DNA of 64,000 bases from Pseudomonadota bacterium. GTDB lineage: Bacteria > Pseudomonadota > Alphaproteobacteria > MED-G09. The translations under genes and the position numbers were made by a program. Below are positions 12,669-25,542 of this stretch, piece by piece. The notes below the pieces were generated by a model. The model worked only from the letters and a program-made list of their open reading frames with translations, made no database searches and had not been told where the DNA came from. Numbering within the stretch: the stretch's first letter is position 1; every line of letters begins with the position of its first letter. The stretch spans positions 8,034 to 72,033 of the forward strand of contig JAYYUG010000097.1 in assembly GCA_036344135.1 (NCBI GenBank). The letters run 5' to 3'.

Positions 12669-12797
12669 ATTCTCCCAAAAAAAGGTTATCTTTTAGAAGT
12701 TTACTGCTTTAATCTCATTTGTAAATCTTAATTGCATATTTAATTATTTATATACCAAATAATGCAATGCTATTAATATGGGGTTGGAGGGAATTAA

Positions 12798-14144
12798 ATG
12801 AGTGAAAAAAGACTAGAGGAGCGTTCAGCAAGGGTTTCTGGGTCTGCCAATAGGGTATATTCGGAAGATGTTTTAATCACCGGAGATCGTTATACTTCAA
12901 TAGATTTCATGGAAAAAGAGATGGATAAACTGTGGTCAAGAGTTTGGAACATAGGAGGTTGGAGTAATGAAATTCCAAAATCGGGAGACTTTGTTACTCA
13001 CCATATAGGACGTGAATCTATACTAATGGTTCGTCAAACGGATGGTTCTGTTAAAGCGTTTCATAATGTCTGTCCTCATAGAGGAAATCGTCTTGTTCAT
13101 AACGATATTGGTTCAGTCCCGGAATTCACGTGCACTTACCATGGTTGGAAATTTGACCTCGGCGGTACGCTTATCTATGCTCAAGATGAAGAGGACTTTC
13201 CCAAAGGTAACCCATGTGGAAAACTTACTTTATCAGAAATCCCATGCGAAGTGTACGGTGGTTTTATTTGGTACAATATGGATGAAAATTGCTTCCCACT
13301 AAGCGGATTTTTGGGTGAAGTCAAAACCTACTTTGATATGCATGATTTAGAGGGCATGAAACGTATCTACCACAAAGTATGTGAAGTCCCTTTTAACTGG
13401 AAAGCATTAAGGGATAATTTTTGCGAATCCTACCATTTGCCAATGACTCATCCTCAAATCATAGATTACTTTGATGACGATTATAAAAATACTGATTTTG
13501 AACTTTTCGAAACCGGTCATAATTTAATGAAAATGAAAGGTTGCTTACCTTCTCTTCGCGATGCAGGAACATTTGAGATTAATGACAAACTTGAGGCAGA
13601 CCTTCTCAACTGGGGGCTGGATCCTGCTGATTTTGAAGGAAAAGCTCATAACGTTAGAGAAGCTCTTCAAAAACAAAAAAAGAAATTAGGTTCTAAAAGA
13701 GGTTTCAAACATTTTGAGAAAATGCCAGACGCTTGGCTTACAGATGCTTTCCATTTTAATGTTTTCCCGGGCACGTCCATCACCTTCACAGCTGAAGTTG
13801 TCTCTCTTCAGAGGACCGAACCACATCCGACCGATCCAAATAAATCGATTTATGATCATTGGCAAATGGCTTTGAAAGCAGATAATTCCGACAGCCCTGA
13901 AACTAACCCAACGATGTTGGTATCCAGTCCCGAAGAAATGGTTGAATGGGAAGAAGTTGAAAAGACAGTGGTAATATTTGGCGAAGAAACACTTAGTGAG
14001 GTCGCTGATCAAGATTTGGAAAGATCGAGCGGTCAACAACTGGGTTTTCACTCCCGAGGATTCAAGGGTGCTTATTTGTCTGGTCAAGAAAATCGTGTGC
14101 AACAATTTCATAACTTCATTGACCGTTATATAAATAAAATATAA
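12798..14144 (+). CDS. Rieske [2Fe-2S] non-heme iron oxygenase, alpha subunit (alpha-only type)
   Basis: CPHRGNRLVH...CTYHGWKF Rieske motif; catalytic-iron motif ESYHLPMTH; GGAGGG RBS. Confidence 0.9.
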   Translation: MSEKRLEERSARVSGSANRVYSEDVLITGDRYTSIDFMEKEMDKLWSRVWNIGGWSNEIPKSGDFVTHHIGRESILMVRQTDGSVKAFHNVCPHRGNRLVHNDIGSVPEFTCTYHGWKFDLGGTLIYAQDEEDFPKGNPCGKLTLSEIPCEVYGGFIWYNMDENCFPLSGFLGEVKTYFDMHDLEGMKRIYHKVCEVPFNWKALRDNFCESYHLPMTHPQIIDYFDDDYKNTDFELFETGHNLMKMKGCLPSLRDAGTFEINDKLEADLLNWGLDPADFEGKAHNVREALQKQKKKLGSKRGFKHFEKMPDAWLTDAFHFNVFPGTSITFTAEVVSLQRTEPHPTDPNKSIYDHWQMALKADNSDSPETNPTMLVSSPEEMVEWEEVEKTVVIFGEETLSEVADQDLERSSGQQLGFHSRGFKGAYLSGQENRVQQFHNFIDRYINKI

Positions 14145-14247
14145 TTCTCAACCACTAATATAGGATTTTCGAAGCGTGTTTATCCCTATTTCTATTTCCT
14201 TGGATTGCAAATATTAAAGCTTAGTATATCCATATAGATTAAGTATT

Positions 14248-16203
14248 TTAAATTTTTCTCGTTAATTCGACAGCCTCATGAATTGCGCTCATCATCGAGT
14301 TTCGACCACGTACATCACCAATAAGATGAGTGTTTCGATTTGTTTTAGCTAGAGCTTCTGAGAGCTCTCTATTAGGTTGATTGAAACTCACCAAGAATAC
14401 GGTTTTGGCTTCTAGTTTACGTTTTCGTTCTGTAAACAAGACTCCTATTTCTACCTCCTCTTCAGTGATTCCACGTAAATAATGACCGCCAATAAAATCA
14501 AAATCTCCTGACATTAATCGCTCTCTAGCAGCGCCTACTGTGACAGGAGGATATGGAACATTTTGCGCCATTTGTTCCATCCTAGAAACCAGAGTTACGT
14601 GAACGCCTGCATTGAGTAGTACATCAGCTACAGAGATTGATTCAAACGTTCCTGTATCGTCAAATATCACAGCTGGTCCCTCTATTTCTGGCTTTTTACC
14701 AACACCAAATAGACTCCAGGAATTATACACATGAGATAAATCAAACCCTGGTATAGGTTCTGCAGGACTAGATACCTGAAAGCCATCGTCGCGCGGTGTT
14801 GTTCCTGTTGCTATTATGATTTCATCTGGAGAAATTTCTCTGACCTTTTCTTCATCAACCATTGAGTTTAAGTGAACATCTACTGTAAGCTCTTCAATTT
14901 CATCCATTAGATACTGGATAATAGCTCCTAAATCCCCACGATTCGGCGCACTAGCAGCCATTGCCACTTGTCCGCCAAGACGACGAGAGGCTTCGTGTAG
15001 CTCTACTTCATGTCCTCTAATAGCTAATGTTCTTGCGGCTTCCAACCCTGCAAGACCTCCTCCAACTATAAGTATTTTTTTGGAATCAAGCACCTTGTCC
15101 TGAGGATCGAAAGGGATAGATTTTTCTTGTGCGGCAGCGACATTTACTACGCAACTTAATGTGGAACCGTTCATTATACGTCCCACACAACCCATATTAG
15201 AACCTACACAAGGTCGAATCTTACGTTCATTACCCGATCGAGCCTTATTGACTAACTCAGGGTCAGCAATAAGCGCACGAACCATAGAAACCATACTGGC
15301 TTCTCCACTAGCTACAATGGAGCTTGCATGGTCGAGGGTCATTATTCTCCCTGTAACAATTGTAGGTTTTGTGATTCCAGGAGTAACAACTTTATTAGGG
15401 ATCATCTCTACCCCTAGTGGATCATCTGAAGGTGCAATCAATTTGTGAAACCTCCAATATGCACCCATATGAAGAGAAATATAGTCAACTAGAGGATCAA
15501 CTATTTTTGCTATCTCAGCATTGTCTTCCGGTTTAAGTCCACCTGGTACATGGTCTTCATTAGGGATACGAACCCCCACCACAAAGGAACTGTCTTTAAC
15601 TTCTTCTCTTATCGCATTTATAATCTCAAGTAGAAAACGAACCCGATTATTTAATGACCCGCCATATTCATCAGTACGATGATTAGTAGCAGGTGATAAA
15701 AACTCATGAATTAAATACCCGCTGGAAGCATGTATATCTACACCATTCATGCCGCCATCACGACATCGTCGTGCAGCTGAAGCAAATGCTGCGGTAATTT
15801 CACCAATTTGCTCCTTCGTCATTTCTAATGGTATAACTCCTATCATAGGGTTAGGTATTGGGCTAGCTGACCAATTCTCAGGTGCTGCTCCATCAGGAAA
15901 ACTTGCCCCAGCATGATAAATTTGCTGGAACAGCTTCATTCCATAGGGTTTTATAGTAGAAGTCAGTTTTTCGTAAAATGGGATGCATTCATCTGACCAC
16001 AAAGGTAATAGGCCTGGTGCGCTAGGATGTACGCCAGTAGCTTCCAAGGTTGACATACCAACTCCTCCCCGGGCCCTAGCCTCGTGATAAGCAATCAAAT
16101 CATCTCCAAGGGTCAAAGTTGCATGAGGGGTTCTCACAATACGGTTCGGGATTGTAATCCCACCTACCTTTATGGGAACAAAGAGGTTATCATATTGAGC
16201 CAT
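14248..16203 (-). CDS. OYE-like NADH:flavin oxidoreductase fused to FAD/NAD(P)-binding domain (2,4-dienoyl-CoA reductase / TMA-dehydrogenase-like)
   Basis: N-terminal OYE TIM-barrel (HATLTLGDD...QIYHAG); partial Fe-S motif CVGSNMGCVGRIMNGSTLSC; Rossmann GGGLAGLEAARTLAIRGHEV. Confidence 0.85.
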   Translation of the reverse strand: MAQYDNLFVPIKVGGITIPNRIVRTPHATLTLGDDLIAYHEARARGGVGMSTLEATGVHPSAPGLLPLWSDECIPFYEKLTSTIKPYGMKLFQQIYHAGASFPDGAAPENWSASPIPNPMIGVIPLEMTKEQIGEITAAFASAARRCRDGGMNGVDIHASSGYLIHEFLSPATNHRTDEYGGSLNNRVRFLLEIINAIREEVKDSSFVVGVRIPNEDHVPGGLKPEDNAEIAKIVDPLVDYISLHMGAYWRFHKLIAPSDDPLGVEMIPNKVVTPGITKPTIVTGRIMTLDHASSIVASGEASMVSMVRALIADPELVNKARSGNERKIRPCVGSNMGCVGRIMNGSTLSCVVNVAAAQEKSIPFDPQDKVLDSKKILIVGGGLAGLEAARTLAIRGHEVELHEASRRLGGQVAMAASAPNRGDLGAIIQYLMDEIEELTVDVHLNSMVDEEKVREISPDEIIIATGTTPRDDGFQVSSPAEPIPGFDLSHVYNSWSLFGVGKKPEIEGPAVIFDDTGTFESISVADVLLNAGVHVTLVSRMEQMAQNVPYPPVTVGAARERLMSGDFDFIGGHYLRGITEEEVEIGVLFTERKRKLEAKTVFLVSFNQPNRELSEALAKTNRNTHLIGDVRGRNSMMSAIHEAVELTRKI

Positions 16204-16341
16204 TATCCTGCTTTCTAAAAATTAAGGTTACCGCAAGTGTATCATAAAGAATTCTTAGTATGCCTTTCTTTCTTTTGATAATGATTTATTGTAGGTTTAA
16301 TATAACGTGTAAACAACTGAAAATATTGATAGAGGTTAATC

Positions 16342-17697
16342 ATGGGAAAAATGTTTAAAGATCTTGACCCGGACACGATGGTTCGATCGCCAGGTATTAC
16401 TTATCAGGAACTACTTGATACTGATTCACACGATGTTCCTGATGTATTAAGAATCCAATCACCAAAAGATCTTGGGCATTCAGAATTCTCGGTAGAACGT
16501 TACATTTCTAAAGACTGGCATGACAAAGAAGTTGAAAGAATGTGGAAAAAAATCTGGCAATTTGTATGTAGGGAAGAAGATATTGCTGAACCAGGCGACC
16601 ATTATCGTTATGATATTGCTGGAATTTCATTTCTCATTCTTCGTACAGAGACGAATGAGATTAAAGCCTATCCCAATTCATGTCTTCACCGTGGTCGGAT
16701 GCTCAAAGAGTTTGATGGTCACGCTTCCGAATTACGATGCCCTTTCCATGGATTCTGTTGGCACCTTGATGGCTCATTAAAGCATATACCTGCAGATTGG
16801 GATTTCCCTCAGATAGATAAAGAAAATTTTTCTTTACCTGAACTACCAATCGCTATCTGGGGAGGATTTGTGTTTATTAATCCTGACCAGCAATGCGAAC
16901 CATTTGATGATTTCATTAAGGATATGAAGACTCAGTTTGAACGTTGGGAACCAGAAAAGCTATATAAACAAGCGCATGTTGCAAAAATCGTGCCTTGTAA
17001 CTGGAAAATCGCACAAGAGGCTTTCTGCGAGGCCTATCATGTCAGCGGAACCCATCCACAAATTTTACCAAGTTTGGGGTGTGTTAATAGTCAGATCGAT
17101 GTTTGGGATAATTGCGCCCGAGTTATTACACCATCAATGACACCTAGTCCTCTTTTAGATTACGAACTTTCTGAAAAAGATATGATGCGTACCATGATGG
17201 ATCTACCACCGGAAGCCCAGGTTCCAGAATTACCAAAAGACATGAATCCTCGAGAGTTTATGGCGAATAGTAGCAGAGAGGATTTAAGGCCTAACGCAGG
17301 AAGTAAAGTTGATGAATATTGTGATGCTGAAATATTAGATAGCCTCGATTATACCTTGTTTCCAAATTTTCATCCGTGGGGTGCATTTAATAAAATAGTG
17401 TATAGATTTAGGCCCAATGGTAACGATCACCGATCAGCGATTATGGAATGCATTATGCTTTCGCCATTTCAAGGAGAAAGACCGCCTCCAGCTCCCATTC
17501 ATTGGTTGAAAGAAGATGAAAAATGGTCCAGTGCCTTGGGTTTTTTAGGTAAAGTTTTCGATCAAGATACTTTCAATATGCCTAAGGTACAACTTGGACT
17601 AGAATCTACCTACAAGTCAGGAATCACACTATCTGGTTACCAGGAAGGGAAGGTTCGTTGGTTACATCACAAATTGACTGAATGGGTGGGAGAATAA
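16342..17697 (+). CDS. Rieske non-heme iron oxygenase, alpha subunit (paralog 2)
   Basis: CLHRGRML...CPFHGFCWH; catalytic-iron motif EAYHVSGTH; clear paralog of 39763 and 60993 genes. Confidence 0.9.
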   Translation: MGKMFKDLDPDTMVRSPGITYQELLDTDSHDVPDVLRIQSPKDLGHSEFSVERYISKDWHDKEVERMWKKIWQFVCREEDIAEPGDHYRYDIAGISFLILRTETNEIKAYPNSCLHRGRMLKEFDGHASELRCPFHGFCWHLDGSLKHIPADWDFPQIDKENFSLPELPIAIWGGFVFINPDQQCEPFDDFIKDMKTQFERWEPEKLYKQAHVAKIVPCNWKIAQEAFCEAYHVSGTHPQILPSLGCVNSQIDVWDNCARVITPSMTPSPLLDYELSEKDMMRTMMDLPPEAQVPELPKDMNPREFMANSSREDLRPNAGSKVDEYCDAEILDSLDYTLFPNFHPWGAFNKIVYRFRPNGNDHRSAIMECIMLSPFQGERPPPAPIHWLKEDEKWSSALGFLGKVFDQDTFNMPKVQLGLESTYKSGITLSGYQEGKVRWLHHKLTEWVGE

Positions 17698-17939
17698 TGC
17701 CTTCTGTAAAACATCCATTTGACCCAAATATTTTATATGAGCTAGATAAGGATGGCAACATAAGAGTGACCAATGGAGAAAAATTCGGTGTATTTACTAC
17801 TGAAGGTAGGCATATTACAGGAGAAATTCGTGAAGCCGATCCACAATTATGTGTTTGGGTCGGAAACAATCCTGATGTTGAACAACAGCAAGCGAGGGAT
17901 GAACGTTTTACGGAACGTCATGGTTTTAGGAAAAAATAA
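17697..17939 (+). CDS. Small hypothetical protein translationally coupled to Rieske oxygenase (TAATG overlap)
   Basis: 80 aa from ATG 17697 with GGGAGA RBS inside the end of the upstream gene; no recognizable motif, no Cys cluster. Confidence 0.35.
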   Translation: MPSVKHPFDPNILYELDKDGNIRVTNGEKFGVFTTEGRHITGEIREADPQLCVWVGNNPDVEQQQARDERFTERHGFRKK

Positions 17940-17979
17940 ATATCACGACTTCCAAACCTTAAGTTTTATTCTGTCAGTG

Positions 17980-18183
17980 TTATTTAAACCATAAATATGG
18001 TTTATTTCCAGTTATCCTAAAGTAAATTGACATGTTTACCATATGCGTAATCAAAAGAGCTACTGCTATTCCGATTGCCCATATAGGATCGCGGTAATTT
18101 AAATGCGCCCCGATCAAATATAAAGCAATAAGAACCACAATAGTCCATACACCCATTACCAAAAATGCTTTTAAAGAGCTCAT
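17980..18183 (-). CDS. Small two-TM membrane protein (hypothetical)
   Basis: 67 aa, two hydrophobic helices; last gene of minus-strand alkB operon; 3' end overlaps a hairpin (17986-18003). Confidence 0.3.
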   Translation of the reverse strand: MSSLKAFLVMGVWTIVVLIALYLIGAHLNYRDPIWAIGIAVALLITHMVNMSIYFRITGNKPYLWFK

Positions 18184-18185
18184 AT

Positions 18186-18524
18186 TTATGTCCTCCTAAT
18201 TCTCTTTTGCTTAAAATCCAGTTCTACTTTGATGTCGGATTTAAGGACCGATTGACAAGCAAGAATATATCCTTCTTTTAATTGTTCATCAGCCAACACA
18301 TATCCGAAATCTGTAAGTGGTCTAATCTTTCCCTCTAACAATTTGCATCTACATGTCCCGCAACTTCCGACCCGACAATAATGTGGCCATTTAATACCAT
18401 TGTCCAAAGCAGCTGTAAGTAATTTCTCTTCCCGTCTTACTTTCAAAGTTTCATTAGCATTTACAATATTTGCCACAAAATGCTTATCTTTTTTTATAAA
18501 AAAATTAAGCACATTTTCAAACAT
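18186..18524 (-). CDS. [2Fe-2S] ferredoxin (plant/adrenodoxin-like Cys spacing)
   Basis: CRVGSCGTCRC...C (Cx4Cx2C...C) cluster-binding motif. Confidence 0.8.
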   Translation of the reverse strand: MFENVLNFFIKKDKHFVANIVNANETLKVRREEKLLTAALDNGIKWPHYCRVGSCGTCRCKLLEGKIRPLTDFGYVLADEQLKEGYILACQSVLKSDIKVELDFKQKRIRRT

Positions 18525-18553
18525 AAATAATTCTGGCCAGTACTGAGTAAAAC

Positions 18554-18913
18554 TTAAAGTTTAATTACTTCAGGTCTAAGAGACCATAAAATAGCCAATA
18601 TTTCGTCTTTTATACCCTGATCAATATTGTTTTCATCTAAAGCAGCCATCATATCATCAACAACCGCATTGAATTCCTCTTCGGAAATATTCATACTCGT
18701 ATGTGCAGTTATCATGTCTTTACCTGTATACTCTTCAGGCCCTCCAAACCCGTTACACATAAACTCGGTCACTAATCTTATAACTTCATTAGGATCACTA
18801 TTAGCATAACGATTATTAACCGTTGGATTTGAAGTATGATTCTTAAACAATGATGTAGCAATTTCTTTAATTGAATCGGGACCACCAATCCTTTCATAAA
18901 GACTATCAGACAT
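18554..18913 (-). CDS. Truncated hemoglobin (group I trHb, HbN-like)
   Basis: LYERIGG start, GGPEEYTGKDM...H motif matching 2/2 globin signature. Confidence 0.75.
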   Translation of the reverse strand: MSDSLYERIGGPDSIKEIATSLFKNHTSNPTVNNRYANSDPNEVIRLVTEFMCNGFGGPEEYTGKDMITAHTSMNISEEEFNAVVDDMMAALDENNIDQGIKDEILAILWSLRPEVIKL

Positions 18914-18971
18914 AATTTTCTCCTTTTTATAAAGCCTTAGTAAAATAGACTAAAGCTATAATCAATATTTA

Positions 18972-20120
18972 TTAAGCATAACCAACTTGTTTGTTAATCT
19001 TAGTTGCAATTTCACGCTCTGCATCAGTTGCAAAAGTATTATCCCAATGATCAAGCTTTTTCTTAATTAAAGCATGCCATAAAGGTGGCACAAGGGCTAA
19101 AGTAAATCCAGTAAAGTAACCCCACCCAGGATTGGGTCCTCCAACATCATCCAATTCCCAGAAATGTGTTTCTCCACGAACATGGTGATCGCATTGACGA
19201 CCAATTTCTATGAAAAACCAACTCGTAAAAGCCGTATCATTATCCCAAGAATGACGGTGTTCAATGGGTTTGTCCTTTTCTCGTACTAACCCAAAATGCT
19301 CCATATAGTTAAGAGCTTCCAGCTCAAAATTAGATATAGTCCAGACAAAGAACATGCAAGCAACTCCGACTATACCGCCTGCCCACACAAACAGGATTAT
19401 AGTTGGAAGACTTATTAAATAACCTGTAATCCATTTGTTATCTAATGAGAAAAACGATTTCCCTTGTTTCTCAAGTTTTTCTTGTTCCAACTCAAAAGAA
19501 AATTTTGACTGTCCCATATGTGATAACCAAAAATGTTTGTAAAGACTTCTACCCCTAGGAGAAGTGGCAGGATCATTTTCATGGGCAAGTTCTAAATGAT
19601 GGTTATAGACATGTGCGTAACAAAAATGTGCAGCACCGCTCAACCCCATCATCAATCTTGAAATAGGCCAACCTATATCTTTAGTATGAGATAATTCATG
19701 ACCATAAATTATTCCAAGTCCTGCAAATGCACCTGCTGACAAAGAAGCTCCGTACAATTCAAGACCTGTAATGCCTGTTTGAACAGGTAACCAACCCAAC
19801 AACGTAACAGTCCCAAAATCAGCTCCACTCGTATACTGATAAACTCTCCAAGCTAATACTACTTGTAAGATAATGAATATTGGCAGCATCAAATACATTA
19901 CTAGATTTTGTAATTCTTTTATTCCATAAGACTTTCCATTTTTATCAAATCCAGCACCTTTAGTATGGAAGTTGATCACCAGAGTATCTATAGTAATGCC
20001 AACTAAAAATAAAACAGCTCCTGTCCAAACAAAAGGTCCGCCAACAATGAGACCTAATATCGTGACAGACGTCAAAACTGGTACAATAAAGTATCTAATA
20101 TTAATAAAAAATTTTTTCAT
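18972..20120 (-). CDS. alkB: AlkB-family integral-membrane alkane 1-monooxygenase (fatty-acid-desaturase-like diiron hydroxylase)
   Basis: His boxes HELSH, HVYNHH, RQCDHH and the AlkB-specific NYMEHFGL (NYIEHYGL) motif; about 6 TM helices. Confidence 0.8.
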   Translation of the reverse strand: MKKFFINIRYFIVPVLTSVTILGLIVGGPFVWTGAVLFLVGITIDTLVINFHTKGAGFDKNGKSYGIKELQNLVMYLMLPIFIILQVVLAWRVYQYTSGADFGTVTLLGWLPVQTGITGLELYGASLSAGAFAGLGIIYGHELSHTKDIGWPISRLMMGLSGAAHFCYAHVYNHHLELAHENDPATSPRGRSLYKHFWLSHMGQSKFSFELEQEKLEKQGKSFFSLDNKWITGYLISLPTIILFVWAGGIVGVACMFFVWTISNFELEALNYMEHFGLVREKDKPIEHRHSWDNDTAFTSWFFIEIGRQCDHHVRGETHFWELDDVGGPNPGWGYFTGFTLALVPPLWHALIKKKLDHWDNTFATDAEREIATKINKQVGYA

Positions 20121-20412
20121 TTTATCCTCTCTTTAGTGCTTTCAGAAAACCCTTGGGCGCACAATCTGAAAATCAAATACCCTGCTCTTTGGCGAGCAAA
20201 CCATGACCACACTAAACTTTCGTTTAGCTTTTTACATTTTGAGATTTATAAACGGACCGTTTTTTTGCTTCCTGAGCCACATTGTATCACCACCTTCGCA
20301 CGGTATGCAGGTTGGCAGGGGTAATTCCCCCTCTCAAAATGTACTGACATTTAATGACAGAAGTCTATAAAATGCAACTAAAAATTGTATATAATATTAA
20401 AAAAGGGCAAAT

Positions 20413-21150
20413 CTAGGCGCCTTGAGCCGTAGGGCGTACAACTATTTCATTTACGGCTACACCAGGATCCTGCTGCAAAGCATAAATAATAGCTTCTGCA
20501 ATCCTCTCTGCAGGCTGAGCAACAGCTGCGAGATTTCCCTTCATAAGAAACTCCAACATAGATTCATCTTTAATTGAACTTCCTAATTCCGTCTGAAATG
20601 CGCCCGGATAAACGCATGTCACTTGCAATTTACCCGCGCTTTCCATTCTTAGACCTTCAGAAATTGCGCTTACGGCAAACTTGGTGCCAGAATAAACTGC
20701 ACTTCCCGGCATGACTCTTTTTCCCGCTACAGATGAAACATTAATAATCTGACCATCTCCTCTCTCTAACATGTGCGAATAAACAGCATCAATACCATAA
20801 AGGACGCCCTTAATGTTGACATCAATCATAAGATCCCACTCATCGGTTCGACCTTTTTCTAATAAAGACAAAGGCATAACACCAGCATTATTGACAATGG
20901 CATCAATACGACCAAAAGTTGAAATGCCGTGACTTGCTAATTCGTGGATCTCTTGTTTGTTCGTTACATCTGTTGTTTTAAAAATTGCATTTTGATTTCC
21001 AAGACTAGCACACAATTCTTCAAGTCTGTCTTGTCTACGGGCACCCAAAATTACTTTTGCTCCAAGGTCTACACACATTTTGGCGGTTACCATACCAAAA
21101 CCGGAACTGGCACCTGTGATTAATATAACTCTATCTTTAATATCTCTCAT
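20413..21150 (-). CDS. Short-chain dehydrogenase/reductase (SDR)
   Basis: TGASSGFG cofactor motif, YxxxK (YSGTK) catalytic motif. Confidence 0.9.
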   Translation of the reverse strand: MRDIKDRVILITGASSGFGMVTAKMCVDLGAKVILGARRQDRLEELCASLGNQNAIFKTTDVTNKQEIHELASHGISTFGRIDAIVNNAGVMPLSLLEKGRTDEWDLMIDVNIKGVLYGIDAVYSHMLERGDGQIINVSSVAGKRVMPGSAVYSGTKFAVSAISEGLRMESAGKLQVTCVYPGAFQTELGSSIKDESMLEFLMKGNLAAVAQPAERIAEAIIYALQQDPGVAVNEIVVRPTAQGA

Positions 21151-21171
21151 TTCTTACCTCATTAACTTTTT

Positions 21172-21531
21172 TTATATATCGGACTCAAATTCATCAAGAA
21201 TATAAGACCTCATATTTTTTACGTTAGTATCAAAAAGCTTTTCTTCATCCGTATAAATCTCCTTATTAGCCTCCGGCTCACTTAGCTTTTCGCTACAAGA
21301 TTGCATAGTTTCCATATCCGGATACCATATCTCTAAAAAGACATCGAATTCAGGATCGGTTAAATTTCCATCGCGATCCGGTGTGGGGTTGGTAAATCTT
21401 CTAAGATATTTGCTAGCATACCCACTAAGATATTTTTCACCAATCAATCTGTGATGATTTTCATAATATTCCCTGAACTCTTCAACTGTCATTCCTGGCC
21501 TTCGCTTCATTGGCATTACAATCTTAATCAT
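21172..21531 (-). CDS. EthD-domain protein
   Basis: ~119 aa; size and composition (MTVEEFREYYENHH...) consistent with EthD/dimeric alpha-beta barrel family found beside monooxygenases. Confidence 0.55.
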   Translation of the reverse strand: MIKIVMPMKRRPGMTVEEFREYYENHHRLIGEKYLSGYASKYLRRFTNPTPDRDGNLTDPEFDVFLEIWYPDMETMQSCSEKLSEPEANKEIYTDEEKLFDTNVKNMRSYILDEFESDI

Positions 21532-21630
21532 GACTTAGTCCTCTTAAAAATTAATTAATATTCAAATTATAGTATTAATTGTGAGTTTTATACCCTTCAC
21601 TTCAATAATTATTAATGGTAACTGAAAAGA

Positions 21631-21903
21631 ATGGAAAACAAAATTATATCACCTTGTATTTCGGTTTGTGTGCATGATCCATACAATGACTTTTGCTATG
21701 GATGCGGAAGAACACAAGAAGATAAGAAAATATGGATAGAACCTCAAACGACCAACGAATGGAAAGAAAAGAACCTTATTGAAATAATCGATCGCTTAGA
21801 GGAAAAACAAAAAAAATCCTTCGAACTGCAATATCAATACAAACTGAAAAATGGTATCTCACCTATTAAAGAAAAAAAATTAAAATTAGAAAAAGGGTTA
21901 TAA
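21631..21903 (+). CDS. DUF1289-type small Fe-S/cysteine-cluster protein
   Basis: SPCISVCVHDPYNDFCYGCGRTQEDKKIW matches the C-x-x-V-C...C-x-G-C-x-R-T motif of DUF1289. Confidence 0.55.
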   Translation: MENKIISPCISVCVHDPYNDFCYGCGRTQEDKKIWIEPQTTNEWKEKNLIEIIDRLEEKQKKSFELQYQYKLKNGISPIKEKKLKLEKGL

Positions 21904-21907
21904 AAGT

Positions 21908-22306
21908 ATGATGGGTACTGAAGATAAATTTCTCATAACAGAAGTAATGGCAAAATACGCTGCTGCAATAGATGGGAAAGATTTTGAATTGTTCTCGACT
22001 TGTTTTCAACAAAATGTCGAAGTTCTTAGGAATGGAGACAATACTACAGCTATTAAGGGACTTGATGATTGGATATCGTATGTAAAAGAATCTGTTGGCA
22101 AATGTAAATTTACTCATCACTTGCTCAGCATACCATTAATTCAGAAAGATGGTCAGTTAGCAAAAGTTAGAACTAACTTCAAACTCTTCACTCGCTATAT
22201 TGAACCTGAGGGAGAAATTGCGGATTTTTTTGGTTTCTATGAGACAAAAATGATCAAAGAAATAGACCAATGGAAAATAACACAACACAACTTGAATTTT
22301 TTCTAA
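21908..22306 (+). CDS. NTF2-like / SnoaL-like protein
   Basis: 132 aa, AKYAAAIDGKDFELFSTCF pattern typical of SnoaL-like cone fold; 4 nt downstream of DUF1289 gene. Confidence 0.5.
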   Translation: MMGTEDKFLITEVMAKYAAAIDGKDFELFSTCFQQNVEVLRNGDNTTAIKGLDDWISYVKESVGKCKFTHHLLSIPLIQKDGQLAKVRTNFKLFTRYIEPEGEIADFFGFYETKMIKEIDQWKITQHNLNFF

Positions 22307-22322
22307 GGGATTGTAGAATTAT

Positions 22323-24191
22323 ATGATTATACCAATTCAGATTGACCCAGAAAACGGCCTAAAAATCTTCAATACTCGCGCATCCAAAGCAAGTGAAAAA
22401 ATTTCCGGTAAGGGTTATTCGGTAATGCAAGATGATACTCTTACTGATCTTCCCGCAGCACCTAAGGGTGCAGTCTTTAATGCCGAAGAACAGTCAAAAT
22501 ATCGAGAATTTAAGAAAAAAAGAACAGGTTCAGCTAACTATATGGCTATGGATGGAGACTTCAAAAAATATCTTGAAGATCTTTATTCTACAGATCCTAT
22601 TCCCAGAGATTCACTCAAGGATGAATGTGAGATACTTGTTGTTGGCGCGGGCTTAGCTGGACTATTACTCTGGTACAAACTTCAGAAAGCAGGTTTCAAC
22701 GATGTTCGTTTTTGTGAAAAAGGAGGCGATGTAGGTGGAACCTGGTACTGGAACCGTTACCCAGGTGTAGCTTGTGATGTGGAATCATACAGTTACCTGC
22801 CCCTACTCGAAGAAATGGATTACTTTCCAACAATGAAATTTGCTTCTGGATTTGAAATCATGGAATATTGTCAGGGTTTAGCTGAAAAATTCGGTTTCTA
22901 TAAGCGGTGTCTTTTCCACACGACCGTAGAAAAAACTGTCTGGGATGAAACTACATCAAAATGGACTATTTCAACAGATCGTGGAGATGAAATGAAAGCT
23001 CGTTTCGTTGTCCTTGCTAACGGTCTTCTCACTTCTCCTCGACTAGCAAGAATAGAAGGTATGGAGACTTTTAAAGGCGAATCCTTTCATACATCTCGTT
23101 GGAACTATGATGTTGATCTGTCAAATAAGGTTGTAGGTATTATTGGAACAGGTGCTACTGCCGTACAAACAATACCGGAATTAGCAAAAACAGTTAAAGA
23201 ACTTTTCGTTTTTCAACGAACTCCTTCTTCCATAGATGTCCGGGATCAAAGGGAAACTACTCAAGAAGAAGTCCAAACCTGGAAACGGGAACCTGGATGG
23301 GCAAAAGCTAGGCGCGCTAGATTTGCAAAAATTTCGGCTGGTCGTACTGCAATGAAAGCAAACGACGACTATCTATCTGGGAAAAAAGACCACTTTAAAG
23401 AAATAAAGCGCCATGAGGGAGATCTGTCTCCCGAGGAAATGATTGAAAAGCAGCTAGACACAAATTTTCGTATTATGGAGCAAATCCGAGCTAGAGTAGA
23501 TGCCATCATAGAAGATCCGGAAGTGGCCACCTCACTTAAACCATATTATCCCTATGGTTGCAAAAGACCAACTTTTCATGATGAATATCTTCCAACCTTT
23601 AATTTAAAGCACGTAACTTTAGTCGATACAGCACCTTTAGGTGTCACAAAAATCAATAAAGATGGAGTTGTGTATGATGATAAAGAATATCCTTTGGACG
23701 TATTAATTTATGCAACAGGCTTTAGATGGATGGAAGCTGCAACTTTTAATATGGTCATAGGTAAAGACGGAAAATCCTTAAAAGAAAAATGGGCTTTAAA
23801 TGGTACAAAAACTTTCCTTGGAATTCATAGCAACGGTTTTCCAAATCTATTCATTGTTACTGGCCCTCAAGGAGGTGGAGGAAGTTTCAATTTCACAGAT
23901 GCCATTGAAGCCCACGGCGATTATATAATATGGATGTTAGAAACCATGAAAAATCAGAATACAGGAGTTCTTGATGTTAAGAAAAAACATGAGGATGAAT
24001 ATTCTGAACACTGCAGAGACGTTGATACAAGAACCAGTGCCTTTAGAGACTGCATTTCCTATTACAACGATGAAGGAAAAGCTGAACCAGGGAGTTTAGC
24101 CTATTATGGTGGTGGACAATGGCACAAAAGAAGAATTAAAGCTCAGAAAACCCTCAAACCCTATCTTTTTAATACTGTTCCTCGTCAATAA
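22323..24191 (+). CDS. Baeyer-Villiger monooxygenase (type I flavin-containing, NADPH-dependent)
   Basis: FAD GxGxxG (VVGAGLAGL), BVMO fingerprint FKGESFHTSRW, second Rossmann GIIGTGATAVQ. Confidence 0.9.
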   Translation: MIIPIQIDPENGLKIFNTRASKASEKISGKGYSVMQDDTLTDLPAAPKGAVFNAEEQSKYREFKKKRTGSANYMAMDGDFKKYLEDLYSTDPIPRDSLKDECEILVVGAGLAGLLLWYKLQKAGFNDVRFCEKGGDVGGTWYWNRYPGVACDVESYSYLPLLEEMDYFPTMKFASGFEIMEYCQGLAEKFGFYKRCLFHTTVEKTVWDETTSKWTISTDRGDEMKARFVVLANGLLTSPRLARIEGMETFKGESFHTSRWNYDVDLSNKVVGIIGTGATAVQTIPELAKTVKELFVFQRTPSSIDVRDQRETTQEEVQTWKREPGWAKARRARFAKISAGRTAMKANDDYLSGKKDHFKEIKRHEGDLSPEEMIEKQLDTNFRIMEQIRARVDAIIEDPEVATSLKPYYPYGCKRPTFHDEYLPTFNLKHVTLVDTAPLGVTKINKDGVVYDDKEYPLDVLIYATGFRWMEAATFNMVIGKDGKSLKEKWALNGTKTFLGIHSNGFPNLFIVTGPQGGGGSFNFTDAIEAHGDYIIWMLETMKNQNTGVLDVKKKHEDEYSEHCRDVDTRTSAFRDCISYYNDEGKAEPGSLAYYGGGQWHKRRIKAQKTLKPYLFNTVPRQ

Positions 24192-24239
24192 TTATTATTA
24201 AATTAGATAAGGTCCAGAGAAAAAAATTTATTTTCTTTT

Positions 24240-25493
24240 CTACCACAAGTCATATTTTTGAAGTTCAGCCCTTCCAACAACCATATGGTGGACTTCATCT
24301 GGTCCATCAGCAAATCTTAAATGCCTCATGTCAGTATACATATCTGCTAAAGGAGTCCATTGCGATATACCTGCAGCTCCATGCATTTGAATGGCTTGAT
24401 CAACAATTAAACAAGCTTTTTCAGGAACCATTGCCTTCACAGCGCTAATGTAAATTCTTGCTTCTTTATTTCCTAATACATCCATGGCCTTTGCTGCTTG
24501 CAGTACGGATAAACGCATAGCGTTGATTTCTATTCGAGCGCGAGCAATTACTTCTAGATTTTTACCCAATTTGGCTATGGGTTTTCCAAAAGCTTCCCGA
24601 GAACCTGCGCGTTTTACCATTAACTCCAGTGCAGTTTCAGCTTTTCCTATAGTCCTCATACAATGATGGATACGCCCTGGACCTAGACGCACTTGGGATA
24701 TTTCAAATCCTCTTCCCTCTCCCAATAAGATATTGCTTTTAGGTACTCTCACATTATTAAATTTTATATGCATATGACCCTGAGGCGCATGATCGTGTCC
24801 AAACACTTCCATTGCTTCTAACATTTCCACTCCCGGAGTATCTATGGGTACAAGAATTTGTGATTGTTGTTTTGAAGGTGAGGCATCAGGACTGGTTTTA
24901 ACCATCGTGATCATAATCTTACAACGAGGATCTCCTGCGCATGAAATATAGAATTTCTCTCCATTGATAACCCATTCATCACCTTCTAAGACAGCACTTG
25001 TACTAATGTTTTTTGCATCCGAAGAAGCTAGATTAGGCTCGGTCATAGCATATGCTGATCGTATTTCACCATTCAATAAGGGCTTTAACCATTGCTCTTT
25101 CTGTTCTTCTGTACCGACTCTTTGTAAGACTTCCATATTCCCTGTATCAGGAGCACTGCAATTTAAAGTTTCCGAGGCAAGCGGGTATTTCCCTAATTCT
25201 GCAGCAATGTAAGTGTAATCTAAGTTTGTTAACCCATCGCCAATTATCCCATCAGAATCAGGTAAGAAGAAGTTCCATAAACCTATTTCTTTTGCTTTAT
25301 CTTTAGCACCATCTAAGAGTTCAAGTTGACGTGGGTGCCAAGACCATCTGTCCTCTTTCTCCTTGTGAAGAGCAAAAAATTCTTCACTTATAGGCACAAC
25401 ATTTTCTTTAATGTGTTTATTTACCAGGTCCAACAATGGTTTTGCTTTTTCGGACATTGCTAATTGAAAAAGCTCACTGTTTAAAGTTGTCAT
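24240..25493 (-). CDS. Acyl-CoA dehydrogenase
   Basis: 417 aa; ACAD N/M/C domain pattern, YAMTEP, GGxG flavin region, C-terminal helical domain. Confidence 0.85.
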   Translation of the reverse strand: MTTLNSELFQLAMSEKAKPLLDLVNKHIKENVVPISEEFFALHKEKEDRWSWHPRQLELLDGAKDKAKEIGLWNFFLPDSDGIIGDGLTNLDYTYIAAELGKYPLASETLNCSAPDTGNMEVLQRVGTEEQKEQWLKPLLNGEIRSAYAMTEPNLASSDAKNISTSAVLEGDEWVINGEKFYISCAGDPRCKIMITMVKTSPDASPSKQQSQILVPIDTPGVEMLEAMEVFGHDHAPQGHMHIKFNNVRVPKSNILLGEGRGFEISQVRLGPGRIHHCMRTIGKAETALELMVKRAGSREAFGKPIAKLGKNLEVIARARIEINAMRLSVLQAAKAMDVLGNKEARIYISAVKAMVPEKACLIVDQAIQMHGAAGISQWTPLADMYTDMRHLRFADGPDEVHHMVVGRAELQKYDLW

Positions 25494-25542
25494 AATTTAT
25501 TCTCCTTATTTAATTCTCTTTCTTATCTTTGCGTCTAAAAGG

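What the first reader, a model, noticed from the sequence alone, without database searches (positions are those of the whole stretch)
17980..20120. alkB - truncated hemoglobin - [2Fe-2S] ferredoxin - small membrane protein operon
An AlkB-type membrane alkane hydroxylase (NYMEHFGL plus His boxes) is followed on the same strand by a group I truncated hemoglobin, a plant-type [2Fe-2S] ferredoxin and a 67-aa two-TM protein. Gaps between them are 58, 29 and 2 bp. Canonical AlkB uses rubredoxin plus rubredoxin reductase. A ferredoxin partner is atypical, and a 2/2 hemoglobin inside the operon is unusual. It may act in O2 delivery or buffering, or in NO/oxidative-stress protection of the diiron enzyme. 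No reductase gene is adjacent.
Basis: partly seen in the sequence, partly recalled or inferred. Interest (0 to 1): 0.65.

Follow-up and report, generated by a model that had tools for sequence, protein, structure and literature searches.

The report
Globin-linked AlkB-like membrane monooxygenase operon
Four tightly packed genes encode a compact form of a widespread but unstudied membrane oxygenase system with its own small haemoglobin, and relatives elsewhere link it to breakdown of the climate-relevant gas dimethylsulfide rather than to oil alkanes.

Summary
On the minus strand lie an AlkB/XylM-family hydroxylase (20120-18972), a group-N subgroup-2 truncated haemoglobin (18913-18554), a [2Fe-2S] ferredoxin (18524-18186) and a 67-aa two-helix membrane protein (18183-17980). 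The gaps are 58, 29 and 2 bp.

The hydroxylase is not a canonical AlkB. It is about 30% identical to both AlkB and XylM. An iron-ligand histidine is replaced by an invariant glutamine. Its ferredoxin is the N-terminal domain of an XylA/BenC-type reductase.

The gene set is conserved. Among 80 genomic loci found through the hydroxylase, 41/73 carry the ferredoxin or ferredoxin-reductase. The small membrane protein follows in 36/37 ferredoxin-bearing loci. The globin sits right after the hydroxylase in 21/75, and never without the ferredoxin. All 7 globin homologues sampled lie between this hydroxylase and its reductase, in lineages as distant as Thiobacillus.

Published transcriptomes of Methylophaga thiooxydans show a 'fatty acid desaturase', an NAD-binding oxidoreductase, glbN and a TodX-type porin induced 29-136-fold on dimethylsulfide. 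The first enzyme of that pathway is unknown. In four related loci, from at least two lineages, the cluster adjoins the methanethiol oxidase gene.

Best reading: a multicomponent membrane monooxygenase for a small hydrophobic substrate, with dimethylsulfide as the leading candidate. The substrate is inferred, not shown.

The parts
18972..20120 (-). Hydroxylase: an AlkB/XylM-superfamily membrane diiron monooxygenase of a distinct clade. Motifs are H141ELSH145, A169HVYNHH175, N271YMEH275FGL and R308QCDH312H313. Gln309 replaces the first histidine of box 3.
   Evidence: PF00487. PDB AlkB 8sbb/8f6t at E 1e-28. AF2 model matches only AlkB, TM 0.65-0.69. About 30% identical to XylM and AlkB. Q309 and A169 are invariant in 13 clade members. 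The equivalent FtAlkB His311 ligates Fe2 (PMC10113152).
18554..18913 (-). Truncated haemoglobin, group N (I), subgroup 2. Phe B10, His B13, Tyr CD1 and proximal His F8 (His71) are conserved. E10 is Leu instead of Met.
   Evidence: PF01152. E 6e-35 to S. benthica SbHbN structures 8ugz, 7tt9 and others. Residue mapping and 53% identity. A globin sits directly after the hydroxylase in 21/75 loci. 7/7 sampled homologues lie between hydroxylase and reductase. Co-divergence with the hydroxylase: Mantel r 0.77, 0/5000.
18186..18524 (-). Stand-alone [2Fe-2S] ferredoxin, homologous to the N-terminal domain of XylA/BenC/MmoC-type oxygenase reductases. Inferred to be the direct electron donor to the hydroxylase.
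   Evidence: PF00111. 54% identical over 100 aa to the ferredoxin domain of the M. sulfidovorans Fd-FNR, 52% to the Polaromonas Fd-FNR-AlkB fusion and 44% to XylA. Fd or Fd-FNR lies downstream in 41/73 loci. The Fd-only form occurs in 14 loci, so it is a stable variant and not a pseudogene.
17980..18183 (-). tm67: a 67-aa protein with two transmembrane helices. It is the most constant partner of the hydroxylase and is inferred to be a small membrane subunit.
   Evidence: Present in 47/69 loci and in 36/37 loci that carry the ferredoxin. Conserved motif M..lKA..M..WT...G.H.nyRdP.WA.G..LL..H.vN..iYF..aG..P..WFk. No Pfam family. Only 20 representatives among 1.84 billion proteins, all 57-91 aa. 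Strong AGGAGG ribosome-binding site, 2-bp gap to the ferredoxin gene.
20121..20412 (-). 292-bp intergenic region upstream of the hydroxylase. Presumed promoter and regulatory region of the four-gene operon (inferred only).
   Evidence: It is the only long gap on this strand. The promoter/terminator scan found no more sites than in shuffles, so no specific site is claimed. The SD site GAGAGGA lies before the ATG.
20413..21531 (-). Upstream genes on the same strand: EthD-domain protein (21531..21172) and short-chain dehydrogenase (21150..20413). Possible local additions. They are not part of the conserved system.
   Evidence: Pfam EthD and adh_short. Found upstream only in the two 95%-identical Rhodobiaceae MAGs L001 and L002. 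Absent from the 91%-identical L003 and from all other loci.

Best explanation
The four genes are an operon for a compact version of a conserved, so far uncharacterised multicomponent membrane monooxygenase.

Shown by sequence and comparison:
- The hydroxylase belongs to the AlkB/XylM diiron superfamily but forms its own clade, with 8 His plus 1 Gln at the metal site.
- It is almost always accompanied by a dedicated 2-TM micro-protein (tm67) and by a [2Fe-2S] ferredoxin. The ferredoxin is either free, as in the window, or fused to an FNR module as in XylA/BenC.
- In a subset, a TrHbN-2 globin is inserted between hydroxylase and reductase and has co-diverged with the hydroxylase.

Inferred mechanism:
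1. NAD(P)H reduces an FNR-type reductase. In this genome it is encoded outside the 64-kb window.
2. The reductase reduces the [2Fe-2S] ferredoxin, which reduces the diiron centre of the hydroxylase-tm67 membrane complex.
3. The diiron centre activates O2 and hydroxylates a C-H bond of a small hydrophobic substrate that enters from the membrane.

Most likely substrate (inference, roughly 40%): dimethylsulfide or a related methylated sulfur volatile. Hydroxylation would give a hemithioacetal that falls apart into methanethiol and formaldehyde.

The globin is an accessory component, kept reduced by the same ferredoxin. It most probably deals with a reactive small molecule at the enzyme, such as peroxide from uncoupled turnover, NO, or a thiol/sulfide product. 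It is unlikely to store or deliver O2.
For: - Anatomy and translation signals.
- Clade identity and the Gln ligand.
- Fold.
- Ferredoxin homology to reductase N-domains.
- Synteny statistics for 80 loci picked through the hydroxylase alone: Fd 41/73; tm67 36/37 with Fd; globin 21/75; globin 19/37 with Fd against 0/32 without (Fisher 7.7e-7, not corrected for phylogeny).
- Reverse test: 7/7 globin homologues of 55-64% identity lie between a 415-426-aa member of the same hydroxylase clade and a Fer2-FNR reductase. These include Thiobacillus denitrificans and a Hyphomicrobium MAG.
- Co-divergence of hydroxylase and globin: Mantel r 0.77, 0/5000 permutations.
- Link to dimethylsulfide (DMS):
[quoted passage not shown] The primary DMS enzyme there is unidentified (PMC6548844).
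  - The cultured DMS degrader M. sulfidovorans carries hydroxylase-globin-Fer4-GST-FdFNR-tm-TodX OMP-secreted globin in one block.
  - The methanethiol oxidase gene (SBP56/MtoX) with SCO1-MauG lies next to the cluster in L010, L097 (with the PDO and SQR genes too) and L084/L085.
- A TodX/FadL porin in about 20 loci points to an imported hydrophobic substrate.
- SbHbN biochemistry argues against O2 storage.
Against: - No experiment ties this clade to any substrate.
- Orthology of the M. thiooxydans genes (MDMS009_226, _61, _199, _906) to this cluster rests on matching annotations and on conservation within the genus. I could not retrieve their sequences.
- Induction on DMS could be a response to sulfide, methanethiol or H2O2, as the authors assumed.
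- mtoX adjacency was seen in only 4 loci from 2-3 lineages, and not in the window.
- In the window the neighbours are SDR, EthD, BVMO, P450 and Rieske oxygenases. That setting would equally suit hydrocarbon or lipid catabolism.
- Boden et al., as cited in PMC6548844, did not detect DMS monooxygenase activity in M. thiooxydans extracts. A membrane enzyme needing its own reductase could have been missed.
- The globin is absent from 54/75 loci, including a 91%-identical relative (L003), so it is dispensable.
- The synteny statistics are not phylogenetically independent.
Confidence: 0.55

Rival explanations
1. It is a genuine alkane (or other hydrocarbon) hydroxylase, as annotated (K00496). It would use ferredoxin instead of rubredoxin, like the published Fd-FNR-AlkB fusions. 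It would feed marine bacteria on cyanobacterial or petroleum alkanes. The globin would be an optional helper.
For: - AlkB is the only structural match.
- The AlkB-specific NYxEH(Y/F)GL motif and the Glu ligand are kept.
- The ferredoxin is 52% identical to the ferredoxin domain of a fused AlkB, a class shown to be active on alkanes (PMC8918992).
- TodX/FadL porins are typical of hydrocarbon uptake.
- The window neighbourhood holds SDR, BVMO, P450 and ACAD genes.
- Genomes often carry several paralogues, as with alkB.
- Marine surveys count such genes as expressed alkB (PMC13488336).
Against: - Only about 30% identical to any characterised AlkB, and equally far from XylM.
- One metal ligand differs in the whole clade.
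- No alkJ/alkH/alkK-type genes or rubredoxin accompany the conserved cluster.
- Hosts include methylotrophs and sulfur oxidisers (Methylophaga, Thiobacillus, sponge sulfur-oxidising symbionts) not known as alkane degraders.
- The only expression data show induction by DMS in medium without hydrocarbons.
Confidence: 0.25
2. It is a stress-response module. The membrane enzyme would modify the cell's own lipids (desaturation or hydroxylation) under peroxide, sulfide or nitrosative stress. The globin plus ferredoxin-reductase would act as a split flavohaemoglobin-like detoxifier. DMS induction would be secondary to H2O2 and H2S made by methanethiol oxidase.
For: - The authors of PMC6548844 read the induction this way.
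- Beta-type loci are flanked by peroxiredoxin, Fur-family, AhpD-like CMD, OsmC, thioredoxin and DsbD genes.
- SbHbN reacts with peroxide.
- A globin with an FNR-type reductase recalls flavohaemoglobin. The reductase matches the Hmp model weakly, E 5e-20.
Against: - In M. thiooxydans the catalase-peroxidases rise only 3-5-fold. The cluster genes rise 29-136-fold, in the range of the sulfide-oxidation genes sqrA and pdo (35- and 65-fold) and below mtoX (about 200-470-fold).
- A TodX/FadL porin in the cluster argues for an external substrate.
- The hydroxylase-Fd-tm67 core exists without any globin in most loci.
- The motifs are AlkB/XylM-like, not acyl-lipid desaturase-like, and the fold search found no desaturase.
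Confidence: 0.13
3. The globin is an obligatory electron-transfer link between ferredoxin and the diiron centre. It would be the bacterial counterpart of cytochrome b5 in eukaryotic membrane desaturases and hydroxylases.
For: - The globin occurs only where a ferredoxin or Fd-FNR is present: 19/37 against 0/32.
- Its gene sits between the hydroxylase and reductase genes.
- Eukaryotic enzymes of the same class III diiron group use a haem protein plus an FNR-family reductase (PMC8918992).
- SbHbN is reduced by an Fd/FNR system in vitro and does not hold O2.
Against: - 54/75 loci lack the globin, including close relatives of the window (L003, 91%). It cannot be obligatory.
- In XylMA and the fused AlkBs the [2Fe-2S] domain suffices.
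- Ferric SbHbN has an open, hydroxide-ligated distal site, unlike typical electron carriers.
Confidence: 0.05
4. The adjacency is fortuitous: the globin and the small ORF are unrelated neighbours or spurious ORFs.
For: The promoter/terminator scan is uninformative. The ferredoxin has a weak ribosome-binding site.
Against: Order and orientation are conserved across three proteobacterial classes, and the genes co-diverge. tm67 is conserved at the residue level. Transcripts with matching annotations are co-induced in a cultured relative.
Confidence: 0.02

Closest known systems
AlkB alkane 1-monooxygenase with rubredoxin AlkG and reductase AlkT (P. putida GPo1; structures FtAlkB 8sbb, FtAlkBG 8f6t)
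   Same: - Six-helix membrane fold.
- Histidine boxes 1 and 2.
- The NYxEH motif with the Glu ligand.
- The last two histidines of box 3.
- Expected O2-dependent C-H hydroxylation.
   Different: - About 24-30% identity.
- The first histidine of box 3, an Fe2 ligand in FtAlkB, is Gln throughout the clade.
- Box 2 starts with Ala, not Glu.
- A clade-specific loop lies between TM1 and TM2.
- There is no rubredoxin or rubredoxin reductase; the electron donor is a [2Fe-2S] ferredoxin.
- Extra partners are present: tm67 and a globin.
Xylene monooxygenase XylM with its reductase XylA (TOL plasmids pWW0/pWW53)
   Same: - Best full-length match among plasmid-borne genes: 29.5% over 99% of the length.
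- Box 2 reads AHVxxHH.
- The electron donor is a plant-type [2Fe-2S] domain of an Fd-FNR reductase. XylA's ferredoxin domain is 44% identical to the window ferredoxin.
   Different: - XylM keeps the histidine in box 3 (NHINHH).
- There is no globin and no tm67.
- In the window the reductase is reduced to its ferredoxin domain.
- The gene context is not aromatic catabolism.
Fd-FNR-AlkB three-domain fusions (Limnobacter, Polaromonas, Leptospira; Nie 2014, Williams and Austin 2021-22) and the unfused Fd-FNR + AlkB pair on the Hydrocarboniclastica marina plasmid
   Same: Same electron-transfer solution. Their ferredoxin domain is 52% identical to the window ferredoxin, including the CRVG(S/G)CGTC(R/K)CKL cluster loop.
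   Different: - Their hydroxylase domain is a normal nine-histidine AlkB (RHSHHH), about 31% identical to the window protein.
- All domains are fused into one chain.
- No globin and no tm67.
Shewanella benthica TrHbN-2 (SbHbN; PDB 7tt9, 8ugz, 8uzu, 8tls, 8vsh, 8w3a, 9yg7)
   Same: - About 53% identical.
- Same heme-pocket residues: Phe B10, His B13, Tyr CD1, His F8.
- Even the E16 cysteine of the wild-type protein is present.
   Different: - E10 is Leu instead of Met.
- The physiological role of SbHbN is unknown, and its gene context is not discussed in the paper.
- I could not inspect its gene context.
DMS monooxygenase DmoAB (Hyphomicrobium sulfonivorans)
   Same: Possibly the same net reaction: DMS + O2 + NADH gives methanethiol + formaldehyde. 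It is likewise upstream of methanethiol oxidase.
   Different: There is no homology. DmoA is a soluble FMNH2-dependent luciferase-family enzyme. The resemblance would lie in function only, and that function is not demonstrated here.
Eukaryotic membrane desaturases and hydroxylases with cytochrome b5 and b5 reductase
   Same: A class III membrane diiron enzyme served by an FNR-family flavoprotein, with a small haem protein alongside.
   Different: The haem protein here is a 2/2 globin, not a b5 fold. It is optional, and a [2Fe-2S] centre is also present.

Membership tests
AlkB (alkane 1-monooxygenase, EC 1.14.15.3) | AlkB membrane fold with significant sequence similarity | tested here: met
   phmmer E 1e-28 and 1e-26 to 8sbb and 8f6t. 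Foldseek hits only AlkB, TM 0.65-0.69. The model is of moderate quality: pLDDT 68, pTM 0.73.
AlkB (alkane 1-monooxygenase, EC 1.14.15.3) | Nine conserved histidine ligands plus one glutamate at the diiron site | tested here: not met
   8 His plus Glu274 are present. The position of FtAlkB His311 (Fe2 ligand; PMC10113152) is Gln309. This Gln is invariant in 13 + 4 clade members, whereas XylM and AlkBs keep His.
AlkB (alkane 1-monooxygenase, EC 1.14.15.3) | Rubredoxin and rubredoxin reductase as electron donors | tested here: not met
   No rubredoxin-like ORF in the 64 kb. A [2Fe-2S] ferredoxin or Fd-FNR is the conserved neighbour.
AlkB (alkane 1-monooxygenase, EC 1.14.15.3) | Terminal hydroxylation of n-alkanes | not testable with these tools
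   Needs an enzyme assay.
XylM/XylA-type two-component membrane monooxygenase | Hydroxylase homologous to XylM over its full length | tested here: inconclusive
   29.5% identity over 99% of the length, E 1e-32. This is no closer than to AlkB (28-33% in the multiple alignment). No tree was built.
XylM/XylA-type two-component membrane monooxygenase | Reductase with an N-terminal plant-type [2Fe-2S] domain fused to an FAD/NAD(P)H (FNR) module | tested here: inconclusive
   Met in 23/69 related loci (Fer2 + FAD_binding_6 + NAD_binding_1; BenC/MmoC-like). In the window only the ferredoxin domain is encoded, and no FNR is found in the 64 kb.
Truncated haemoglobin group N (I), subgroup 2 (TrHbN-2) | 2/2 globin domain with proximal His F8 | tested here: met
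   PF01152, E 9e-15. His71 aligns with SbHbN His69 (F8).
Truncated haemoglobin group N (I), subgroup 2 (TrHbN-2) | Subgroup-2 distal pocket as in SbHbN (Phe B10, His B13, Tyr CD1) | tested here: met
   All three residues are conserved. E10 is Met in SbHbN and Leu here (residue names from PMC11904497).
Truncated haemoglobin group N (I), subgroup 2 (TrHbN-2) | Heme binding and ligand chemistry | not testable with these tools
   Needs the purified protein.
Plant-type [2Fe-2S] ferredoxin | Fer2 fold with the four-cysteine pattern Cx4Cx2Cx29C | tested here: met
   PF00111, E 3e-17. C50-x4-C55-x2-C58...C90 (YCRVGSCGTCRC...LACQS). TIGR02008 scores below its cut-off, so it is not a photosynthetic-type ferredoxin proper.
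DMS monooxygenase (functional class, not a protein family) | DMS-dependent NAD(P)H and O2 consumption yielding methanethiol and formaldehyde | not testable with these tools
   Only indirect evidence exists: DMS-induced transcripts with matching annotations in M. thiooxydans, and adjacency to mtoX in L010, L084/L085 and L097.

The most novel reading that the evidence does not exclude
This Gln-containing AlkB/XylM clade, with its tm67 subunit, XylA-type ferredoxin or reductase and dedicated TrHbN-2 globin, is the long-sought primary dimethylsulfide-oxidising enzyme of Methylophaga. It is also carried by marine bacterial groups (SAR86, Porticoccaceae, OCS116, Rhodobiaceae, sponge symbionts). It would convert DMS to methanethiol and formaldehyde upstream of methanethiol oxidase. 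Many marine 'alkB' genes now counted as alkane-degradation markers would then report on the sulfur cycle, and TrHbN-2 globins would gain their first physiological role.
Probability: 0.35. Interest if true: 0.9.

Novelty: new variant of a known kind. Interest (0 to 1): 0.74.

Why it matters
1. It defines a coherent and widespread gene system: 329 genomic loci in one scan, and more than 1100 protein clusters at E <= 1e-100. Until now the system has been split between the annotations 'alkane 1-monooxygenase', 'fatty acid desaturase' and 'hypothetical'.

2. It gives the little-studied TrHbN-2 globins a fixed genomic partner. One of them has seven crystal structures but no known role. This yields a testable function.

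3. It offers a concrete candidate for the missing first enzyme of dimethylsulfide degradation in Methylophaga. No dmoA, ddh or methyltransferase has been found there despite proteomics and transcriptomics. DMS turnover matters for marine sulfur flux and aerosol formation.

4. [quoted passage not shown]

5. The His-to-Gln change at Fe2 and the 2-TM micro-subunit are new features for the mechanistic study of class III diiron enzymes.

Tried and rejected
- NCBIfam gave no hit for the hydroxylase, the globin or tm67.
- Promoter and terminator scans found no more sites than in shuffled sequence, so they say nothing about transcription units.
- I tried to prove orthology of the M. thiooxydans genes in three ways: the paper's supplementary sequence file, which does not hold those loci; cluster membership; and a third homology search seeded with the M. 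sulfidovorans protein. None returned a named M. thiooxydans entry. The genome scan used exact peptide patterns and may have missed it.
- The S. benthica KT99 globin locus could not be inspected.
- The O2-delivery idea was rejected on the published SbHbN properties.
- The idea that the window ferredoxin is a decayed reductase gene was rejected. The Fd-only architecture recurs in 14 loci of several lineages.
- Searches for an FNR and a rubredoxin in the window were negative.
- A nitro/NO reading was considered, based on the NMO, ACAD, NorQ/NorD-like genes and the globin in Methylophaga-type clusters. It was not pursued. The family matches are generic: the NMO protein scores best as FabK-like and the ACAD as Rv1679-like, both far below cut-offs.
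- The AF2 model is only moderately confident around the metal site, so no pocket analysis was attempted.
- Literature searches found no paper describing this operon or a haemoglobin-AlkB link. The library is not exhaustive.


Full report
OBSERVATION

- hydroxylase, 20120..18972, 382 aa
- globin, 18913..18554, 119 aa
- ferredoxin, 18524..18186, 112 aa
- a 67-aa protein, 18183..17980

The gaps are 58, 29 and 2 bp. Pfam confirms FA_desaturase (E 2.5e-24), Bac_globin (9e-15) and Fer2 (3e-17). The 67-aa protein has no family. Clear Shine-Dalgarno sequences precede the hydroxylase, globin and 67-aa genes, and a weak one precedes the ferredoxin. The consensus promoter/terminator scan found no more sites than in shuffles and is uninformative. 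The window has about 36% G+C. It is 95% identical at protein level to contigs of marine 'Rhodobiaceae bacterium' MAGs (L001, L002).

WHAT THE PROTEINS ARE

Hydroxylase
- Its only solved relatives are the AlkB structures 8sbb and 8f6t, at E 1e-28 and 1e-26.
- An AlphaFold model (pLDDT 68, pTM 0.73) matches nothing but AlkB, with TM 0.65-0.69.
- Among annotated plasmid genes the best full-length match is XylM (29.5% over 99% of the length). AlkBs and the Polaromonas Fd-FNR-AlkB fusion score similarly. In a joint alignment the window protein is 30-32% identical to each. It therefore belongs to a third deep branch of the AlkB/XylM family.
- It keeps HELSH, AHVYNHH and NYMEHFGL. Box 3 reads RQCDHH. 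The first histidine of that box, His311 in FtAlkB and a ligand of Fe2 (PMC10113152), is glutamine.
- Gln309 and Ala169 are invariant in all clade members aligned. XylM (NHINHH) and AlkBs (RHSHHH) keep the histidine.

Globin
- It is a group-N truncated haemoglobin of subgroup 2. It is about 53% identical to Shewanella benthica SbHbN (E 6e-35).
- Phe B10, His B13, Tyr CD1 and His F8 are conserved. E10 is Leu rather than Met.
- SbHbN does not combine reversibly with O2 and readily forms heme d with peroxide. Its role is unknown (PMC11904497).

Ferredoxin
- It has the plant-type four-cysteine pattern.
- It is 54% identical, from its very N-terminus, to the ferredoxin domain of the Fer2-FAD-NAD reductase of Methylophaga sulfidovorans. 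It is 52% identical to the ferredoxin domain of the Polaromonas Fd-FNR-AlkB fusion and 44% identical to that of XylA.
- The full-length reductases of relatives score as BenC/MmoC/AntC-type oxygenase reductases.

The window holds no FNR module and no rubredoxin-like ORF.

CONSERVATION

A scan of one genome per species found 329 loci encoding a relative of the hydroxylase. I analysed the best 80. tblastn with the window proteins and with proteins of a fuller cluster (L009) shows recurrent architectures:
1. Compact, hydroxylase-[globin]-Fd-tm67: Rhodobiaceae, Porticoccaceae, SAR86, OCS116/MED-G09.
2. Expanded, hydroxylase-[globin]-GST-Fd-FNR-tm67-[TodX/FadL porin]-[secreted second globin]: Methylophaga/Piscirickettsiaceae and other Gammaproteobacteria.
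3. Hydroxylase-GST-tm67-GST-GST, with a porin further on: mostly unclassified Gammaproteobacteria MAGs.
4. Hydroxylase alone: many unclassified Gammaproteobacteria MAGs, including the sponge symbiont Candidatus Porisulfidus.

Counts in this set, which was chosen without reference to the globin:
- Ferredoxin, free or fused: 41/73.
- Among 69 loci with at least 3.3 kb downstream: Fd alone 14, Fd-FNR 23, neither 32.
- tm67: 47/69 overall, and 36/37 where a ferredoxin is present.
- Globin directly after the hydroxylase: 21/75.
- Globin with a ferredoxin 19/37, without one 0/32 (Fisher 7.7e-7, not corrected for shared ancestry).

The 91%-identical relative L003 lacks the globin, so the globin is dispensable.

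tm67 is conserved at the residue level. An exhaustive search of 1.84 billion representatives found only 20 relatives, all stand-alone proteins of 57-91 aa.

The reverse test is striking. I looked up seven globin homologues of 55-64% identity. They include Thiobacillus denitrificans, a Thiobacillus-related genome and a Hyphomicrobium MAG. Every one lies between a 415-426-aa member of the same hydroxylase clade and a Fer2-FNR reductase. Those hydroxylases are 56-59% identical to the window protein and carry the same RQxDHH and AHVYNHH motifs. Across 31 loci the pairwise identities of hydroxylase and globin are correlated (Mantel r 0.77, 0/5000 permutations). This fits long co-inheritance as a unit.

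Other recurrent neighbours:
- an ACAD-like gene with a PAS/GAF histidine kinase and a LuxR-type regulator upstream
- a divergent CbbQ/NorQ-like AAA+ and VWA pair
- TodX/FadL porins

The EthD and SDR genes upstream in the window are shared only with the two closest MAGs.

FUNCTIONAL EVIDENCE FROM ELSEWHERE

Kröber and Schäfer (PMC6548844) compared M. thiooxydans grown on dimethylsulfide (DMS) and on methanol. Their Table S6 lists these among the most DMS-induced transcripts:

| Annotation | Locus tag | DMS | Methanol |
|---|---|---|---|
| fatty acid desaturase domain protein | MDMS009_226 | 1359 | 10 |
| oxidoreductase, NAD-binding domain | MDMS009_61 | 618 | 12 |
| glbN, hemoglobin-like protein HbN | MDMS009_199 | 601 | 21 |
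| membrane protein, aromatic hydrocarbon degradation | MDMS009_906 | 1469 | 18 |

- For comparison, the catalase-peroxidases rise only 3-5-fold.
- The authors read the desaturase as lipid maintenance under peroxide stress.
[quoted passage not shown] There is no dmoA, no DMS dehydrogenase, and the postulated methyltransferase was never found.

These four annotations match four components of the cluster in the cultured DMS degrader M. sulfidovorans: hydroxylase-globin-Fer4_19-GST-Fer2/FNR-tm-Toluene_X porin-secreted globin.

I could not obtain the M. thiooxydans sequences, so orthology is inferred and not shown.

Independent support comes from gene neighbourhoods:
- In a Methylophaga-like contig (L097) the complete mto cluster ends 4.6 kb from the hydroxylase gene. 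That cluster holds SBP56/MtoX, SCO1-MauG, a TlpA-like gene, PDO-rhodanese and an SQR-like gene. Only two small ORFs and the CbbQ/VWA pair lie between.
- A Methylophaga MAG (L010) also has mtoX and SCO1-MauG upstream.
- In an unrelated 7-Mb genome (L084/L085) mtoX and SCO1-MauG directly follow the hydroxylase-globin-reductase triad.
- Thiobacillus-type loci place a dihydrolipoamide-dehydrogenase-like gene, a GcvH-like gene, a rhodanese and OsmC next to the triad. A 'dld' transcript is also DMS-induced in M. thiooxydans (1007 vs 15).

HOW IT MOST LIKELY WORKS

Shown:
- a conserved set comprising hydroxylase, tm67, ferredoxin or Fd-FNR, and an optional globin
- homology of each part
- co-induction of transcripts with matching annotations in one cultured species of the same genus as carriers of the cluster

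Inferred:
1. NAD(P)H reduces an FNR. It is fused to the ferredoxin in relatives. In this genome it is encoded outside the 64-kb window.
2. The FNR reduces the [2Fe-2S] cluster, which reduces the diiron centre of the hydroxylase-tm67 membrane complex.
3. The diiron centre activates O2 and hydroxylates a small hydrophobic substrate. In fuller clusters the substrate is admitted by a TodX-type porin.

I rank DMS, or a related methylated sulfur volatile, as the most likely substrate at about 40%. Alkanes or other hydrocarbons come next.

The chemistry is plausible, on my own recollection: AlkB is reported to demethylate methyl ethers and to sulfoxidise thioethers. C-hydroxylation of DMS would give methanethiol plus formaldehyde, which is the input of MtoX.

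The globin needs the ferredoxin context and resembles a protein that does not hold O2. I therefore favour an accessory redox or scavenging role over O2 delivery. Candidate targets are peroxide from uncoupling, NO, or the thiol/sulfide product. A cytochrome-b5-like obligatory relay is unlikely because most clusters lack the globin.

COMPARISON WITH KNOWN SYSTEMS AND NOVELTY

Ferredoxin-dependent AlkBs are known as three-domain fusions (PMC4021335, PMC8918992). XylMA uses the same type of reductase. In that sense the system is a variant of a known kind.

The following features appear in none of the papers I could search, though the library is incomplete:
- the Gln ligand that defines the clade
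- the dedicated micro-subunit
- the stand-alone ferredoxin form
- the conserved truncated haemoglobin

Membership in 'AlkB' in the strict sense fails on two tested features, the nine histidines and the rubredoxin partner. The claim 'works like AlkB/XylM' stands. Marine surveys currently count genes annotated K00496 in SAR86, Porticoccaceae and similar groups as alkane consumption (PMC13488336). That annotation deserves caution for this clade.

VERDICT

- It differs in another: the enzyme is not a typical alkane hydroxylase, O2 buffering is unlikely, and the evidence points to sulfur volatiles.
- The substrate assignment remains an inference that simple experiments could settle.

Noticed in passing
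L009 13417-13902; L088 12041-12523; L097 15249-15734: Methylophaga-type clusters encode a second truncated haemoglobin of about 160 aa. It has a typical Sec signal peptide (…SVYA/AD…) and sits right after the TodX/FadL porin gene. A periplasmic globin is unusual. It would sit in the compartment where one of the two M. thiooxydans methanethiol oxidases, which has a predicted signal peptide, would make H2S and H2O2.
   Followed up: partly
L088 3616-6514 (-); L097 6776-9693 (-); L009 5548-7713 (-): A CbbQ/NorQ-like AAA+ ATPase and a large VWA (NorD-like) protein are encoded divergently from the hydroxylase in about 15 loci. NorQ/NorD-type pairs are, as I recall, reported to insert non-haem iron into NO reductase. 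They may mature the diiron site here.
   Followed up: partly
L097 1-5380 (-); L010 1-3312 (-); L084 7705-11035 (+): Methanethiol oxidase (SBP56) with SCO1-MauG lies beside the cluster. In L097 the TlpA-like, PDO-rhodanese and SQR-like genes are there too.
   Followed up: yes
L081/L084/L086/L093/L094 upstream regions; L007, L009, L011, L015, L018-L020, L024: An ACAD-like gene lies upstream of the hydroxylase in Beta- and Gammaproteobacteria. Its best match is the Rv1679/FadE16 model, far below cut-off. It comes with a PAS/GAF histidine kinase and a LuxR-type response regulator, probably the cluster's sensor and regulator.
   Followed up: partly
L012, L015, L016 (contig OX044353.1, 1.95 Mb): One small gammaproteobacterial genome carries three paralogous hydroxylase loci with three different architectures: alone; GST-FdFNR-tm67-OMP-secreted globin; and Fd-tm67. 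Several other 1.8-2.7-Mb genomes have two copies.
   Followed up: no
window 17682-17939 (+): An 85-aa ORF overlaps the 3' end of the Rieske oxygenase gene (16342-17697) by 16 bp. It is conserved in L001 and L002. A 34%-identical paralogue follows the other Rieske gene in L001. It may be a small unannotated partner of these GbcA-like oxygenases.
   Followed up: no
window 8426-28083: The operon sits in an oxygenase-rich island: P450 (8426-9589), TonB-dependent receptor (10197-12668), two Rieske alpha subunits (12798-14144, 16342-17697), OYE/FadH-like flavoenzyme (14248-16203), BVMO/FMO-like (22323-24191), ACAD (24240-25493), GST (25543-26157) and copper amine oxidase (26179-28083). No matching reductase for any of them was seen in the part of the window I annotated.
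   Followed up: partly
window 31124-31261 (-): An ORF has a CxCxxC...CxxC pattern reminiscent of the GFA (glutathione-dependent formaldehyde-activating) family, about 11 kb from the operon. This is of interest only if the hydroxylase releases formaldehyde.
   Followed up: no
L096 876-5571: In a Hyphomicrobium-like contig the hydroxylase-globin-reductase triad is flanked by a 1-Cys peroxiredoxin, a Fur-family regulator and an AhpD-like CMD protein. This peroxide-stress context supports the rival stress-response reading.
   Followed up: no
L088 8445-8624; L097 11637-11816; L094 8746-8922: A 58-59-aa Fer4_19 (single [4Fe-4S]/[3Fe-4S]) ferredoxin lies between the globin and the GST in Methylophaga-type clusters. 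In L094 it lies nearby, next to a Pyr_redox_2 reductase. It could be a second electron carrier of the system.
   Followed up: no
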